Origin: a virus
Virus record (IMG/VR): IMGVR_UViG_3300025732_000026
Coordinates: 24,567 to 88,566 of that record
Reading direction: 5' to 3' (one strand)
Length of the DNA stretch: 64,000 nucleotides
Shown: positions 37,181 through 60,514 of the stretch, piece after piece
Layout of the letters: each line of letters opens with the position of its first letter
Numbering within the stretch: the first letter of the stretch is position 1
Program-made: the position numbers and the translations under genes
The notes under the pieces: generated by a model
Database searches by the model: none
Told to the model about the DNA's origin: nothing
The model's input: only the letters and a program-made list of their open reading frames with translations

Positions 37181-37270
37181 TCCGCCCGGACTGGCTAGGT
37201 GAAAGTCTCTGACTGTTAATCAGAAGGCGCAAGAAATTGCGGCGAGGTTCGAATCCTCGGAGCGGAGCCA
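37181..37270 (+). tRNA. tRNA-Asn(GTT) with a long variable arm
   Basis: Acceptor TCCGCCC/GAGCGGA (one mismatch), D stem GACT/AGTC, anticodon arm TCTGA-CTGTTAA-TCAGA, variable arm CGCAA-GAAA-TTGCG, T arm CGAGG-TTCGAAT-CCTCG, 3' GCCA. Confidence 0.85.
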
Positions 37271-46113: not shown

Positions 46114-46669
46114 TGAAATTTTAGCTCATTGGTATGAACAATTAACTAAAATTTATAAATTTGCACATCGAAAAAATTTATTAATTAATTTGCGATCTTT
46201 AATTAAAGATATGGAACAGAATGCTATTGTCAAAACTTCTTGGAATAATTCAGATGTTGATATTGCAAGATTGGATTTAATAAATCATCAATTGGCAGTA
46301 GGATTCGTTAAAATTGATGCGGAATATGTTCCGCTTTTTCCAGATGATATTGTTTATGTTGATAAAAAGAAATATGCTATAACTGAGTCCAACATGTTTG
46401 ATGATACTATTTGTCGTGCTAGAGAATGTGATACTAATGCAATAACATATCTTGCATTTGAAGACATGTTATTAAATCCAACTGTTGAGTATGTGGAGAT
46501 AGATGGTATTACAATAATTAAACCTAGACGTATTGATGCATCACAAATCGTCGTAAATTATAACAATATTAATACGCGAATATATATGTATGATAGAGTG
46601 TGGTATGAATTTGATAGTGTAGACGATAAAAAACATGCAATTTCATATATTGAAAAAATTTTCAAATAA
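46100..46669 (+). CDS. Hypothetical protein
   Basis: AGGAG SD. Confidence 0.6.
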   Translation: MRNTNEILAHWYEQLTKIYKFAHRKNLLINLRSLIKDMEQNAIVKTSWNNSDVDIARLDLINHQLAVGFVKIDAEYVPLFPDDIVYVDKKKYAITESNMFDDTICRARECDTNAITYLAFEDMLLNPTVEYVEIDGITIIKPRRIDASQIVVNYNNINTRIYMYDRVWYEFDSVDDKKHAISYIEKIFK

Positions 46670-47782: not shown

Positions 47783-48649
47783 ATGCGAAATCTCGCGCAA
47801 TTTTTTGTAGTAATGATGATGTTGATTTGTTTGGATGCATTTGCATCTAATCACAATAACGGCAATGGCAATGGCAATGGTAATAATAATGGTCCTCATT
47901 CATCTAGTGTTGTTGATGTTGATACCAGTGTTATCAATTCTATTTCTAATCGTACTAATGTCGACATTGGTAATACCAACACTTTAACAAATACTCTAGG
48001 TATTTCTGATTCTGGTAATAGCACTAATACCTTGGGACAGTCTATTAATGATTCTGGTAATAGCACTAATACCAATTTTTTGGGTCAGGGTATTTCTGAT
48101 TCTGGCAATGCTAACGCCCACCAAAATCAAACGCAGTCCCAAACTCAGCAACAAGATCAGTCGCAGAGTATGAATGATTCTGGTAATAGCAATGCTACTC
48201 AGTCACAATCCGCATCTAATGCAGGTAATGCTCAAAGTGTTAATATGCATACGCCCAAACAGCATTACAATACACCATCAGCAATGTTGTTTGTGCCACC
48301 ACCAACAGCGACTTGTCAGAATGTGATTGGTGCCGCTGGTATGGGACCAGGAATGGGGTTAAGTATCAGTGGCTCATACACCAATGAGAATTGCGAAATT
48401 CTTGAACTGGCCAAGGCATTGGCTTCAATCGGTCAAGTTAAAGCAAGCTATGAGGTTATGTGCGCAACTAAACACGGCAATTTGACTCAGTTCTGTCGAA
48501 AACTGAATGCTCAAAATGTTGATAAACTCAAGGAAGATGAAAAGGTTGATGTTAAAGGCGCAGTTGCACAAGTTGCAATTCAACAGCCACGAGCAGAAGC
48601 AGGTGCAGTTTTTAATGCCAATCATCCTAATCCTTGGCTGACACATTAA
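47783..48649 (+). CDS. Secreted protein with N/S/Q-rich repeats and a Cys-containing C-terminal domain
   Basis: Signal peptide ending AFA; (I/M)(S/N)DSGN repeats. Confidence 0.7.
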   Translation: MRNLAQFFVVMMMLICLDAFASNHNNGNGNGNGNNNGPHSSSVVDVDTSVINSISNRTNVDIGNTNTLTNTLGISDSGNSTNTLGQSINDSGNSTNTNFLGQGISDSGNANAHQNQTQSQTQQQDQSQSMNDSGNSNATQSQSASNAGNAQSVNMHTPKQHYNTPSAMLFVPPPTATCQNVIGAAGMGPGMGLSISGSYTNENCEILELAKALASIGQVKASYEVMCATKHGNLTQFCRKLNAQNVDKLKEDEKVDVKGAVAQVAIQQPRAEAGAVFNANHPNPWLTH

Positions 48650-56099: not shown

Positions 56100-56453
56100 A
56101 TGCCGCTTAGTTTCATTGAAAAAAATAAATACAATTTTGTTATATTTAAAGATGATGATTATATTGGAACAATTGAAAATAGTATACATGGTGTTACAAT
56201 TGATTTAATTGATACAGAACATACCCTGGATGATATGACAAGAATTGTTAATAAAATGCGAATTATATCTGAAACATATTTTGTTGAATTGTTATCTGAG
56301 AAATTAATACAGTATAATTATACTGTATTTTATGATTATATATCTGAAAGTTTTAATATATTGTATGGAAAAGATTGGATCTTTGAAGCATTTTCAATCG
56401 AATCTTTGTTAAAATATATCAGAGAAGAATTGGTGGATTTAGAAAATTCTTGA
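56100..56453 (+). CDS. Hypothetical early protein (paralogue of 60671..61051)
   Basis: Shared DM..I.NKM, E.L.EKL..Y.Y.V.YD motifs. Confidence 0.65.
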   Translation: MPLSFIEKNKYNFVIFKDDDYIGTIENSIHGVTIDLIDTEHTLDDMTRIVNKMRIISETYFVELLSEKLIQYNYTVFYDYISESFNILYGKDWIFEAFSIESLLKYIREELVDLENS

Positions 56454-56478
56454 CAGTAAGAAATTTTTGTTATATAAT
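56450..56478 (+). promoter_or_regulatory. Early promoter (repeated cassette)
   Basis: TTGACA-17 nt-TATAAT; TTCTTGACAGTAAGAAATTTTT. Confidence 0.8.
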
Positions 56479-56521
56479 GTATTCGTAGTGAAGATTAATT
56501 AATTTGATAGGAAATAACATA

Positions 56522-56992
56522 ATGGACTTATTTAATTATATGCAAGACGGAGCATGTCCGGCTGCAAGGGCGGTGTTAGCATATTTGCAAAGAGAATCAA
56601 CTAACATTGAGGATTCTTGGAATAAAGAATATCATTGTTATGATGCAAGATTTGAAATTGGCAGATGGGAAAATTGTCGGGAACAAGGATACATTGTATC
56701 ACTTAAAAATAAAGATCACTCTCAGCAATTAAATATTGCATTCTTTGAACATAGAAATTCGAACGACATCTGTTGTATTAAATGGCTGCAATATTCAATA
56801 AATTCTTTATCGATTGATACCATGGACACGAAGGGCGAAGTATATAATACTAAATGGGATGTATCCAAATCATTCAATTATGATGGAATAATTGAATGCG
56901 CCAATTGGATTGCAGGTGAATTTAGGCAATTTTGGAACACCACTAAAAAAGATTATGTTGTGGCTAATTCAATTCTAACAAACGAAGTCTAA
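56522..56992 (+). CDS. Hypothetical early protein
   Basis: First gene after the promoter; NCREQGY, FFEHRNSN. Confidence 0.7.
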   Translation: MDLFNYMQDGACPAARAVLAYLQRESTNIEDSWNKEYHCYDARFEIGRWENCREQGYIVSLKNKDHSQQLNIAFFEHRNSNDICCIKWLQYSINSLSIDTMDTKGEVYNTKWDVSKSFNYDGIIECANWIAGEFRQFWNTTKKDYVVANSILTNEV

Positions 56993-57070
56993 TGATTAAT
57001 TGCATCAGATCATTTTTCGAAATCAATTACTATTATAGAATAATAGTGGAGATTAATTATGAGGGATAAC

Positions 57071-57184
57071 ATGCGACAAAATGGATTTACTTTGATAGAA
57101 TGGATAATGGTGGTTGCTACCATTTTGATAATACTTGCATTATTTATTCCAGCAATCATAAATAATGCAGACTTTTTTCAATAG
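57071..57184 (+). CDS. Mini type IV pilin-like peptide (37 aa, not in track)
   Basis: MRQNG|FTLIEWIMVVATILIILALFIPAIINNADFFQ: prepilin cleavage/N-methylation motif with E5 and a Pro near position 22; GAGGGA SD. Confidence 0.75.
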   Translation: MRQNGFTLIEWIMVVATILIILALFIPAIINNADFFQ

Positions 57185-57238
57185 AATTGGCGTGTTGAAA
57201 ATGAATATGAAGAAAAATATTGATGGATTTAAAAATTC

Positions 57239-57266
57239 TTGACATTAGGAAATAATTCTGTATAAT
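57239..57266 (+). promoter_or_regulatory. Early promoter (repeated cassette)
   Basis: TTGACA-16 nt-TATAAT. Confidence 0.75.
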
Positions 57267-57316
57267 TGTAACTGTGGTAAATAATTTTGATTAATTAATT
57301 GATAGGGAGTTATATC

Positions 57317-57724
57317 ATGGCAACTAACGCATCAATCGCAGTAGTTGATTTAGAAGGACAAGTTCACAGCATCAATCTTCATTGGGATGGATATATTGAG
57401 TTCGCGGGAAAAATTCTAAAAGAACATTACAATAATCTTGATGCTGCACTAAAATTGGTGTCTAAAGGCAATTTAAGTGTATTGGGTAAATATATAGAAC
57501 CATCTCCCGACTATCCTCATAATTTTGAATCAAGTCAAGCTGATGTTTGTTTGTATTATGGTAGAGATCGTGGAGAAGATAATACCGATTGTATTGTTGA
57601 TTCTAATATTACAGAATACATTGACTTAGGTTGCGATTATGATTATAACTATCTATTCGTAGACGGTGAATGGAAGGTATCTGAATATGATCTTTGCAAT
57701 TTTAAATCATATAATATTGAATAA
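57317..57724 (+). CDS. Conserved phage hypothetical protein
   Basis: SINLHWDGY...G..L..HY, GNLSVLG, YGRDRGE. Confidence 0.7.
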   Translation: MATNASIAVVDLEGQVHSINLHWDGYIEFAGKILKEHYNNLDAALKLVSKGNLSVLGKYIEPSPDYPHNFESSQADVCLYYGRDRGEDNTDCIVDSNITEYIDLGCDYDYNYLFVDGEWKVSEYDLCNFKSYNIE

Positions 57725-59846: not shown

Positions 59847-59979
59847 TCAAATTAATGTTAGATGTTTATTCGATGAAAGATTTGAATATTTGATTATATA
59901 AATTATTGTTAATGAAGAAAAAGAAAATATATTGCGATATTATATGATTGATTTTATATGAGTTGAATTAAAATAAGGG

Positions 59980-60133
59980 TTTTCTTAAAGGATGGAATCG
60001 ATTTTCTTAAAGGATGGAATCGATTTTCTTAAAGGATGGATTCAGTTTTCTTAAAGGATGGAATCGATTTTCTTAAAGGATGGATTCAGTTTTCTTAAAG
60101 GATGAATCTAGTTTTCTTAAAGGACGGATTCCA
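59980..60133. repeat. Seven tandem copies of a 22-bp non-coding repeat
   Basis: TTTTCTTAAAGGATGGAATCGA and ...GGATTCAG variants, head to tail. Confidence 0.92.
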
Positions 60134-60160
60134 TAATGTTTTTAATTGATATTATATTAT

Positions 60161-60514
60161 ATGACTATTGATAGAAATCAATCTGATATATTACAATTTG
60201 CTAAGGAATTATTCATTGAGAATAATACTAATGCATTCCCATTCACATATAAAGATATTAATTTTATAAAAGTGATAGAGGAACTACAATTAACTCCCAG
60301 AGAATTATCGATTCTTTATATTAGGGATAATTTCGCAGTGGCATATAATATTATTAATTGGAATATGCAAGTATTACATAATGAATTATCTGAGACTGAA
60401 AAACAATTAATATCAAATGTTATATATCATATGAATGAGCTAGAATTGGATCTAAATCTGATATTAATAGATGACTTAAAAGACAAGATTAATACTATTA
60501 TAGAGAAAATATGA
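60161..60514 (+). CDS. Hypothetical protein (paralogue of 53958..54365)
   Basis: Shares the motifs listed for its paralogue. Confidence 0.65.
   Translation: MTIDRNQSDILQFAKELFIENNTNAFPFTYKDINFIKVIEELQLTPRELSILYIRDNFAVAYNIINWNMQVLHNELSETEKQLISNVIYHMNELELDLNLILIDDLKDKINTIIEKI

What the first reader, a model, noticed from the sequence alone, without database searches (positions are those of the whole stretch)
57071..57184. Unannotated 37-aa mini type IV pilin in the early region
Seen: SD GAGGGA, then MRQNG|FTLIEWIMVVATILIILALFIPAIINNADFFQ-stop. Established: G|FTLIE with E5 followed by a hydrophobic helix is the class III signal processed by prepilin peptidase PilD in T4P and T2SS pilins. Only the N-terminal helix is present, with no globular head. 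Inference: a dominant-negative pilin mimic that poisons pilus assembly or saturates PilD, removing a phage receptor (superinfection exclusion) or altering secretion. It would imply a T4P-bearing host.
Basis: partly seen in the sequence, partly recalled or inferred. Interest (0 to 1): 0.78.

Follow-up and report, generated by a model that had tools for sequence, protein, structure and literature searches.

The report
Headless mini-pilin gene in freshwater phage
An uncultured freshwater T4-like phage carries a real 37-codon early gene that encodes only the signal and membrane helix of a bacterial pilus subunit, probably to tamper with the host's pili or secretion machinery; similar phage "pilin stubs" have been noted in print but never tested.

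Summary
Window 57071-57184 (+) is an intact 37-codon ORF behind GAGGGA. An in-frame ATG at 57059 would give 41 aa. It scores above the curated cut-offs of Pfam N_methyl and TIGR02532 and is the only such match in the 88.6-kb virus record. About 7e-4 such matches are expected by chance.

The mature peptide would be 32 residues, with F1, E5 and P22. It is a single helix with no head domain.

The gene lies in an early region of a T4-like freshwater phage (about 30% GC, host unknown). It sits behind a decayed copy of the phage's repeated sigma-70 promoter and leader cassette. The ORF is unchanged in contigs from three other studies.

It is already called in public protein sets, so "unannotated" does not hold. 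It has no close homologue.

Short pilin-like genes recur in T4-like phages: KVP40 66 aa, VH7D 67 aa, and an 82-aa gene in the nearest complete relative. A 2026 paper notes roughly 60-aa truncated PilA in virulent Pseudomonas phages and proposes the same two mechanisms, both untested.

Verdict: a real gene and a new, extremely short member of a kind already noted in print. Interference with type IV filaments is the best but unproven reading.

The parts
57071..57184 (+). Mini-prepilin ORF: 37 codons plus TAG stop. Leader MRQNG (57071-57085); predicted mature 32-aa peptide (57086-57181) with F1, E5, P22.
   Evidence: sequence; N_methyl and TIGR02532 above cut-off; alignment to solved pilins; one helix, pLDDT 87; E5, P22, GRAVY 1.83.
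57059..57070 (+). Four extra in-frame codons (MRDN) if translation starts at ATG 57059, giving the 41-aa form called by JGI, ENA and Logan. They overlap the Shine-Dalgarno GAGGGA (57061-57066) of the 57071 start.
   Evidence: Alignment with other gene leaders places GAGGGA where they carry AGGGAG or AAGGGG, which favours the 57071 start. The only variant seen in the ORF, 57063 G>A, falls here.
57007..57058 (+). Decayed copy of the phage's early promoter and leader cassette. The -10-like TAGAAT lies at 57036-57041 and the leader TAGTGGAGATTAATT at 57044-57058. The -35 hexamer is lost through small deletions.
   Evidence: local alignment to the cassettes at 56439 (1 of 500 shuffles score as high) and 58901 (0 of 500); the leader motif precedes 7 of 7 plus-strand ORF starts.
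56439..56503 (+). Intact early promoter cassette (TTGACA 56450-56455, 17-nt spacer, TATAAT 56473-56478) that most likely drives the unit made of the 156-aa gene and the mini-pilin.
   Evidence: 12 of 12 consensus positions; repeat families D2 and D3; multi-copy in metagenome contigs.
56522..56992 (+). Upstream co-oriented gene of 156 aa (phrog_6319, unknown function). Probably co-transcribed, but not functionally tied to the mini-pilin.
   Evidence: In the 12 loci from other phages that hold its homologues, no class III ORF was found.
57228..57292 (+). Next early promoter cassette (TTGACA 57239-57244, TATAAT 57261-57266), which bounds the mini-pilin unit on the 3' side.
   Evidence: No terminator-like fold between the stop and this promoter (z = 0.47).
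57317..57724 (+). Downstream gene of 135 aa (phrog_1987, unknown function), first gene of the next cassette.

Best explanation
The ORF is a real early phage gene for a headless prepilin.

Inferred chain of events:
1. It is transcribed from the sigma-70 early promoter at 56450 by read-through, and perhaps weakly from its own decayed cassette. Translation starts at ATG 57071.
2. The peptide inserts N-in/C-out in the inner membrane. The leader is basic and the 10-residue C-tail is acidic.
3. The host prepilin peptidase (PilD, GspO or ComC type) cleaves it after Gly-1 and N-methylates Phe1.
4. The resulting 32-residue alpha1-N helix keeps F1, E5 and P22. These are the elements that let a pilin dock at the assembly platform and pack into the filament core. 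It has no alpha1-C or beta-sheet head to complete the subunit.
5. It therefore competes with host pilins or pseudopilins at the peptidase, at the platform and at the growing filament base. This stalls or weakens type IV pili, and possibly the T2SS or competence pseudopili.
6. The gain for a virulent phage would be early exclusion of pilus-dependent competitors or of its own progeny, or shut-down of pilus-dependent host functions.

Shown here: the gene's anatomy, its non-chance nature, its early-cassette setting and its persistence in several metagenomes. Inferred: every biochemical step.
For: - Class III signal above two curated cut-offs, and the only such match in the record.
- Chance expectation of 7e-4, and 0 of 60 random genomes with a match.
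- G-1, F1, E5 and P22 are in register with solved T4a pilins. The model is one continuous helix.
- It lies on the coding strand and fills a gap between genes. The phage's own leader motif sits in front of it, and that motif precedes 7 of 7 plus-strand ORF starts.
- A decayed early-promoter cassette lies upstream, and intact consensus promoters flank the unit.
- The frame is the best of six by codon usage.
- The exact protein is seen on 8 contigs from several sources.
- Contigs from three other studies carry the 37-codon ORF with no change (X5, X7, X11; X7's list may be incomplete). A fourth (X12) covers only its 3' part, also unchanged. The 34 bases from 57190 to 57223, just after the stop, hold 5 variable sites.
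- Short pilin-like genes recur in T4-like and other virulent phages of piliated hosts. Lengths of the nine records opened: KVP40 66, VH7D 67, 1.081.O 82, BUDD 82, BUCT-ZZ01 83, Acibel004 107, ACG-2014f 127, Asfd_1 150 and 033B 157 aa; the uncultured relative G001 has 82 aa.
- Precedents read: prophage FimU mimics enter the pilus and block phage adsorption, and truncated roughly 60-aa phage PilA are noted in six virulent Pseudomonas phages (PMC12952977, abstract and sections 17-18). The small Pf4 protein PfsE suppresses T4P by binding PilC (PMC8764522, abstract). Pilin stoichiometry controls pilus dynamics (PMC13249403, abstract).
Against: - There is no evidence of translation or transcription. 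No RNA run holds the stretch, which the tool says is no evidence either way.
- The codon-usage score is low for a gene: 3.5th percentile of 37-codon windows of real genes, and 5% of spurious ORFs score as high. Hydrophobic composition may explain this.
- No homologue of the same length or sequence was found, so there is no comparative test of selection.
- The lack of variants in the ORF is shared with the roughly 450 bases upstream. It may reflect a recent sweep rather than purifying selection.
- Its own promoter copy has lost the -35 hexamer, which is also what a decaying cassette would look like.
- The usual Gly14 is Leu.
- A 37-residue peptide cannot use co-translational SRP targeting as full-length pilins are thought to do (recalled knowledge), so insertion is uncertain.
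- The host, and hence its pili and peptidase, is unknown.
- Only 1 of 39 related (gp43-kin) records searched carries any N_methyl ORF, though most of these are fragments.
Confidence: 0.45

Rival explanations
1. Decaying relic. A pilin gene, or only its 5' end, was captured in a promoter-flanked cassette and truncated by recombination at the repeated cassettes. The stub persists for now but does nothing.
For: The cassette copy in front of it has lost its -35 hexamer. The repeated promoter cassettes are recombination-prone, with many copies and loose ends in metagenome contigs. The nearest complete relative and the isolated phages examined have longer forms of 66-157 aa. The codon score is low. 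No family of the same length was found.
Against: The ORF is intact and unchanged in contigs from three other studies (X5, X7, X11), and its 3' part in a fourth (X12), while the spacer behind it varies. Leader, SD and start are preserved. No trace of a head-coding remnant follows the stop. The peptide ends exactly after the membrane helix and keeps F1, E5 and P22. The ESM Atlas lists clusters of 64-67 members whose representatives are 37-48 aa, two of them N_methyl-only (lead only, score 0.90).
Confidence: 0.2
2. A membrane peptide with a target other than the pilus fibre. For example, it could soak up the prepilin peptidase so that unprocessed host prepilins jam translocon-rich membrane domains. 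It could also act as a small membrane or lysis-timing or exclusion factor that merely reuses a pilin-type anchor.
For: In Synechocystis, loss of PilD makes unprocessed prepilin harmful to Sec-dependent membrane protein synthesis (PMC8546353, abstract). T4-type phages make small early membrane proteins for exclusion (stated in PMC12952977, section 17). The peptide is little more than one transmembrane helix.
Against: The match is specific to the class III signal, not just hydrophobic: the G|FTLIE register, E5 and P22. The PADLOC library gave no hit.
Confidence: 0.15
3. Camouflage subunit. The headless pilin is polymerised into otherwise working pili and removes or dilutes the surface that competitor phages bind, without blocking assembly.
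For: This is one of the two hypotheses offered for truncated phage PilA (PMC12952977, section 17). P-FimU works by incorporation without loss of pilus function (same paper, abstract).
Against: With only 32 residues there is no alpha1-C or head to make the outer-shell contacts that hold pilus subunits together (established pilus structure, recalled). A lytic phage gains little from keeping pili functional.
Confidence: 0.12
4. Chance ORF that happens to look like a prepilin.
For: AT-rich DNA yields many short ORFs (75 ORFs of 25 aa or more in 6.5 kb). A GFTLIEW heptapeptide arose by chance out of frame in an HNH-like gene of other viral contigs.
Against: Expected 7e-4 per genome and 0 of 60 random genomes. 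The chance examples lack the hydrophobic helix. It sits on the coding strand, in a gap, behind the phage's gene-start motif.
Confidence: 0.03

Closest known systems
Truncated phage PilA ('P-PilA', N-terminal ~60 residues) of six virulent Pseudomonas phages, noted in Sztanko et al., Cell Rep 2026 (PMC12952977, section 17 read)
   Same: Encoded by non-temperate phages. Only the conserved N-terminal pilin helix is present, with no head. The same two hypotheses are offered: incorporation without phage-binding sites, or block of assembly. Untested.
   Different: Ours is about 37 aa rather than about 60 aa, lies in an uncultured freshwater T4-like phage, and is unrelated in sequence as far as I could test. 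The only link is a motif-level match to phrog_11263, a 72-position profile.
Short pilin-like ORFs of T4-like vibriophages (KVP40.0030, 66 aa, flagged with Pfam PF00114 in the record; VH7D gp250, 67 aa; 1.081.O, 82 aa)
   Same: T4-type virulent myoviruses, a 5-residue basic leader, G|FTLIE, one hydrophobic helix, small size, no tested function.
   Different: They keep a 35-50-residue polar tail with one or two Cys and sit just upstream of thymidylate synthase. Ours ends 10 residues after the helix and sits elsewhere.
Family of 76-108-aa phage pilins with a conserved Cys-bracketed beta mini-head (nearest complete relative G001, 82 aa; Synechococcus phage BUCT-ZZ01, 83 aa)
   Same: Found in the closest complete relative of this phage (gp43 52% identical). 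Same leader type and helix. Lies in the same orientation downstream of DNA ligase, about 2.3 kb away in G001 and about 12 kb away here, among small genes.
   Different: The head, four predicted strands with two invariant Cys, is the best conserved part of that family and is entirely absent here. Identity is 10 of 27 residues in the N-terminus only.
Prophage FimU mimics (P-FimU) of F10-like Pseudomonas phages
   Same: A phage-encoded type IV pilin used against other phages (PMC12952977, abstract and discussion).
   Different: They are full-length minor pilins from temperate phages. They are incorporated at the pilus tip with pilus function kept.
PfsE of filamentous phage Pf4
   Same: A small phage-encoded protein that suppresses type IV pili and gives superinfection exclusion (PMC8764522, abstract).
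   Different: It acts by binding PilC. No prepilin-like feature is mentioned in the abstract I read.
Geobacter PilA-N ('geopilin domain 1')
   Same: It is the best sequence match among solved structures and a naturally short pilin that is mostly helix (9egp_A, 69 aa, and 7tgg_A, 90 aa).
   Different: It is cellular, about twice as long, and works with a separate head protein (recalled). E-values here are only 0.017-0.035.

Membership tests
Type IV pilin / pseudopilin superfamily (class III signal, Pfam N_methyl PF07963, TIGR02532) | Short basic leader ending in Gly(-1), then a hydrophobic +1 residue (Phe) and Glu at +5 | tested here: met
   MRQNG|FTLIE. Pfam 26.9-28.0 bits against 21.2; TIGR02532 19.7-20.1 bits against 16.3.
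Type IV pilin / pseudopilin superfamily (class III signal, Pfam N_methyl PF07963, TIGR02532) | About 20 hydrophobic residues forming alpha1-N, with Pro near +22 | tested here: met
   Mean Kyte-Doolittle hydropathy of mature residues 6-25 is 2.91, and P is at +22. The Pro aligns with that of solved pilins, while G14 is replaced by L. The model is a helix.
Type IV pilin / pseudopilin superfamily (class III signal, Pfam N_methyl PF07963, TIGR02532) | Amphipathic alpha1-C packed on a beta-sheet globular head | tested here: not met
   The ORF stops 10 residues after the helix. Matches to full-length pilin models cover only profile positions 1 to about 31 and lie far below their cut-offs.
Type IV pilin / pseudopilin superfamily (class III signal, Pfam N_methyl PF07963, TIGR02532) | Cleavage and N-methylation by a prepilin peptidase; polymerisation by a type IV filament machine | not testable with these tools
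   The host is unknown. A complex prediction with a stand-in peptidase never ran because the queue was full.
Headless / truncated phage pilins (as noted in PMC12952977) | Encoded by a phage, non-temperate type | tested here: met
   T4-type replication and nucleotide-metabolism genes, all on one strand, in a virus record. No integrase was seen among the 66 ORFs scanned.
Headless / truncated phage pilins (as noted in PMC12952977) | Only the N-terminal pilin helix, no head | tested here: met
Headless / truncated phage pilins (as noted in PMC12952977) | Sequence kinship with the Pseudomonas-phage family | not tested
tblastn of the mini-pilin against 50,697 phage records found nothing.
76-108-aa phage pilin family with Cys-bracketed beta mini-head (G001 / BUCT-ZZ01 type) | Conserved C-terminal domain of about 40 residues with two invariant Cys | tested here: not met
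   Alignments A2 and A3. BLASTP similarity is confined to 27 N-terminal residues.

The most novel reading that the evidence does not exclude
The 32-residue mature peptide is the smallest natural substrate of a prepilin peptidase. It acts as a chain-poisoning 'stalk without head' that plugs type IV filament machines. Such peptides would be a general early weapon that unrelated virulent phages (T4-like, T5-like, jumbo) have evolved or captured repeatedly.
Probability: 0.33. Interest if true: 0.65.

Novelty: new member of a known kind. Interest (0 to 1): 0.42.

Why it matters
If the peptide works as proposed, it defines the minimal part of a pilin that the peptidase and assembly machine accept. 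That is a 32-residue probe, or inhibitor lead, for type IV pili, type II secretion and competence pili. It would also add a very cheap superinfection-exclusion or host-takeover device to the repertoire of lytic phages.

Its occurrence in a freshwater T4-like phage widens the phenomenon beyond the Pseudomonas phages mentioned in print. So do the short pilin genes in vibriophages, cyanophages and the nearest relative.

On its own it remains an untested singleton of a kind that others have already pointed out.

Tried and rejected
Searches for homologues:
- Near-length search of 5.8 billion proteins found only the protein itself.
- An exhaustive phmmer over 1.84 billion representatives gave 9 hits at E <= 1e-3. 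One is the protein itself. The other 8 are 131-547-aa proteins that each carry two N_methyl stretches, at E about 1e-4.
- tblastn against 50,697 phage records found no match.
- A degenerate DNA pattern for 12 residues found 0 stretches in viral contigs.
- A pattern for GFTLIEW found 26 stretches, none a mini-pilin. Four identical hits lie out of frame in an HNH-like gene.
- The metagenome scan matched more than 595 stretches. Only one passed tblastn, and it is a transporter helix.
- A profile search meant to find short relatives was swamped by the 76-108-aa family.

Synteny:
- The 13 loci holding homologues of the two neighbouring genes lack any class III ORF and are not syntenic.
- The RNA ligase neighbour gave no kin.

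Kin records:
- N_methyl is above cut-off in 1 of 20 records and 0 of 38.
- 39 of these 58 records are gp43 kin. I searched 39 of the 80 gp43 loci, those on the longer contigs.

Other negative results:
- No RNA holder was listed among the sequencing runs.
- Foldseek of the single helix against the PDB found no match.
- Rfam found none. PADLOC found none for the ORF. Pfam found none for the neighbours.
- TAG read-through was considered and rejected. TAG ends 12 of 93 long ORFs, no suppressor tRNA is present, and the extension would add only 12 codons.
- No terminator-like fold follows the ORF.
- The complex prediction with a stand-in prepilin peptidase never ran.
- Supplement Table S3 of PMC12952977 could not be read.
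- The paper searches I ran turned up no experiment on a headless phage pilin.

Full report
**1. The observation**

GAGGGA lies at 57061-57066, the ATG at 57071, 37 codons follow, and the TAG stop is at 57182-57184. An in-frame ATG at 57059, behind GGAG, would add four residues and give a 41-aa form.

The product scores 26.9 bits (37 aa) and 28.0 bits (41 aa) on Pfam N_methyl, whose cut-off is 21.2. It scores 20.1 and 19.7 bits on TIGR02532, whose cut-off is 16.3. Full-length pilin and pseudopilin models (ComGC, PilA, PpdD, GspG and others) match only through their first ~31 positions and stay far below their cut-offs.

A six-frame scan of the whole 88,566-bp record finds one N_methyl match, this one. 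A loose class III motif followed by 14 apolar residues is expected 7e-4 times in the six frames. It appeared in 0 of 60 Markov-chain genomes.

Alignment to solved pilins puts G-1, F1, E5 and the Pro at +22 in register, and the usual Gly at +14 is Leu. The mature peptide would be 32 residues with GRAVY 1.83. It is modelled as one helix with pLDDT 87, from a single sequence.

Nothing resembling a head follows. The 114 bases after the stop hold the next promoter cassette. TAG is an ordinary stop here, ending 12 of 93 long ORFs, and there is no suppressor tRNA.

**2. The setting**

The record is an IMG/VR virus contig, linear, with a CheckV completeness estimate of 49%.
- All 36 ORFs of 200 aa or more in the window lie on the plus strand.
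- GC content is 28-33%.
- PHROGs name T4-type genes: sliding clamp, clamp loader, DNA polymerase, UvsX, replicative helicase, primase, NrdA and NrdB, DNA ligase, RNA ligase, RtcB, NAMPT and PRPP synthase.
- The polymerase is at most 44.5% identical to isolated phages, best to cyanomyoviruses; all 2,679 matching records are below 60%.
- It is at most 52-53% identical to IMG/VR contigs. The phage therefore has no close sequenced kin.
- Contigs holding the stretch come mainly from freshwater metagenomes of 12 studies.
- The host is not identified.

From about 53,900 onward the window is a run of small ORFs without Pfam families. They are punctuated by a repeated cassette made of TTGACA, a 16- or 17-nt spacer, TATAAT and a leader containing TAGTGAAGATTAATT. 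Copies lie at 46662, 51789, 53888, 56439, 57228, 58901 and 63097. These cassettes are multi-copy in metagenome contigs as well, shown by depth spikes and loose ends. This is what an early region of a T4-type phage looks like.

**3. Is it a gene?**

The leader motif occurs 8 times in the record. Seven occurrences are on the plus strand, and each sits directly before an ORF start. Those ORFs are 191, 336, 320, 156, 37, 135 and 68 aa long, and the 37-aa one is the mini-pilin.

The 66 bases upstream of the ORF align to the cassettes at 56439 and 58901 better than 499 of 500 and 500 of 500 shuffles respectively. The -10-like TAGAAT and the leader are kept, but the -35 hexamer is lost to small deletions. 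In that alignment GAGGGA takes the place of the Shine-Dalgarno of the other genes, which favours the 57071 start.

No terminator-like fold separates the ORF from its neighbours. Read-through from the perfect promoter at 56450 is therefore the likely source of mRNA.

By codon usage the frame is the best of six. Its score is nonetheless low, at the 3.5th percentile of real-gene windows, and 5% of spurious ORFs reach it.

The exact 41-aa protein is on record from JGI/IMG, Logan, ENA and MetaClust on 8 contigs, the longest 146,204 bp. The 37-aa form is in UniRef.

Logan contigs from four further studies were laid on the stretch.
- X5 (contig 17): all 8 of its differences are listed, and none lies in the ORF.
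- X11 (contig 3): its one difference lies outside the ORF.
- X12 (contig 11): it covers only the 3' part of the ORF, and its 4 differences all lie outside.
- X7 (contig 25): it has 36 differences over 1,357 bases. About 24-26 of them are listed, and only 57063 G>A touches 57059-57184. The tool withheld 8 weaker rows, so this count is not complete.

The 34 bases from 57190 to 57223, just after the stop, hold 5 variable sites. The roughly 450 bases upstream of the ORF are also invariant in the listed rows. The pattern is thus compatible with constraint but does not prove it. I put the chance that this is a real, expressed gene at about 0.8.

**4. Relatives**

No protein of like length or sequence was found. 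The loci that hold homologues of the two neighbouring genes lack it and are not syntenic.

Among the records searched for N_methyl, 1 of 39 gp43-kin records has a match above cut-off. None of the 19 other records does. Most of these records are fragments.

That one record is the closest complete relative, G001: 168,163 bp, terminal repeats, gp43 52% identical. It encodes an 82-aa pilin with the same kind of leader and helix plus a small C-terminal domain.
- This protein belongs to a large family, with 172 of 177 candidates at E <= 1e-3. The 120 listed are 76-108 aa long.
- The best conserved part of the family is the head, which has two invariant Cys.
- The head is modelled as four short strands after a disordered linker, with pLDDT 78.5.
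- The mini-pilin shares only 10 of 27 N-terminal residues with it.

tblastn with that protein finds pilin-like ORFs in 69 GenBank phage records: Synechococcus 35, Vibrio 21, Aeromonas 5, Acinetobacter 4, 'Bacteriophage' 3 and Xanthomonas 1. I opened ten of these records. One, Acinetobacter 'phage' MD-2021a, has a 193-aa xcpT next to epsF and looks like a bacterial type II secretion operon, so I left it out. The other nine give these lengths:

| Phage | Length (aa) | Note |
|---|---|---|
| KVP40 | 66 | record itself cites Pfam PF00114 |
| VH7D | 67 | |
| 1.081.O | 82 | |
| BUDD | 82 | |
| BUCT-ZZ01 | 83 | same family as G001 |
| Acibel004 | 107 | |
| ACG-2014f | 127 | annotated 'pilin' |
| Asfd_1 | 150 | 78-residue extension before the motif |
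| 033B | 157 | |

The present ORF is the shortest of the set by far.

In the ESM Atlas, 29 of the 30 nearest feature hits carry N_methyl. Two of the top three clusters (representatives 39 and 37 aa) are N_methyl-only. The first (48 aa) has no common Pfam family. They have 64-67 members each. The score is 0.90, so this is a lead only, and such short entries may be fragments.

Earlier notes of this scan list headless prepilin ORFs of 34-79 codons in other phages. I did not check them, and none shares sequence words with this one.

**5. What is in print**

- Sztanko et al. (PMC12952977; abstract and sections 17 and 18 read) show that prophage FimU mimics enter the pilus and block tip-binding phages. 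[quoted passage not shown] They suggest that these either incorporate without phage-binding sites or inhibit assembly. No experiment is reported for them.
- PfsE of Pf4 suppresses T4P by binding PilC (PMC8764522, abstract).
- An archaeal provirus encodes pilins that use the host machinery (PMC12426801, abstract).
- The ratio of minor to major pilins sets pilus dynamics (PMC13249403, abstract).
- Unprocessed prepilin is harmful to Sec-dependent membrane protein synthesis in Synechocystis (PMC8546353, abstract).
- A ValKK3 paper mentions an ORF with low homology to PilE (PMC13142089, passages).
- The paper searches I ran found no test of a headless phage pilin.

**6. Mechanism**

The best reading, at 0.45, is that the peptide is made early and inserts N-in/C-out. 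The host prepilin peptidase then cleaves and methylates it. As a stalk without a head it competes with host pilins at the peptidase, at the platform and at the filament base. This would disable type IV pili or related pseudopili. The pay-off would be exclusion of pilus-dependent phages or shut-down of pilus functions. Only the anatomy and the setting are shown here. Every biochemical step is inferred.

Rivals:
- A decaying cassette relic (0.2).
- A membrane peptide with another target, such as peptidase titration leading to translocon stress (0.15).
- A camouflage subunit in working pili (0.12).
- A chance ORF (0.03).

**7. Verdict**

This is a new and extreme member, with a 32-residue mature peptide, of a kind that has been noted but not tested. 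It occurs in a phage lineage, freshwater T4-like, where that kind had not been pointed out. Interest is moderate.

Noticed in passing
window 59957-60154: About eight tandem copies of a 22-nt unit lie just upstream of, and run into the start of, the ORF at 60146-60514 (family D1). It looks like an iteron-type array, a candidate origin or protein-binding site.
   Followed up: no
window 46662, 51789, 53888, 56439, 57228, 58901, 63097: A repeated early promoter and leader cassette (TTGACA, 16-17-nt spacer, TATAAT, then a conserved leader) flanks small-gene modules. The copies are multi-copy, with loose ends, in metagenome contigs. This recalls the mobile promoter cassettes described for T4-type phages (recalled).
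   Followed up: partly
L121:1330-1575 (- strand; G001) and GenBank ON615601.1 (BUCT-ZZ01, UTS52068.1): A large family of 76-108-aa phage pilins (172 of 177 candidates at E <= 1e-3). The transmembrane helix varies, but the small Cys-bracketed four-strand head is nearly invariant. No function is known.
   Followed up: partly
window 56478 / 57234 (run X5): One 12.4-kb contig joins a 56443-56478-like promoter half to a 57234-57304-like half, which would skip the 156-aa gene and the mini-pilin. The joined side is only 36 bases long, both sides are repeats, and it is probably another cassette elsewhere. It is not evidence of a deletion variant.
   Followed up: no
window 37181-37270: A tRNA-Asn(GTT) call of 90 nt, which is unusually long for a tRNA-Asn. 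The record also holds two tRNA-Met(CAT) genes.
   Followed up: no
L127:976-1428 (Aeromonas phage Asfd_1, QBX32783.1): The annotated 150-aa protein carries the G|FTLIE motif only after a 78-residue N-terminal extension. Either it has a very long leader or the start is mis-called.
   Followed up: no
L016, L022, L035, L036 (IMG/VR contigs, GC 0.34): An identical 33-codon ORF that begins like a prepilin (basic leader, then G|FTLIEW) lies out of frame inside an HNH-like gene and lacks a hydrophobic helix. It is a chance look-alike and a useful negative control.
   Followed up: yes
window 47996-48198, inside ORF 47783-48649: Three imperfect 35-nt direct repeats lie inside a 288-aa ORF of unknown function (family D5).
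   Followed up: no
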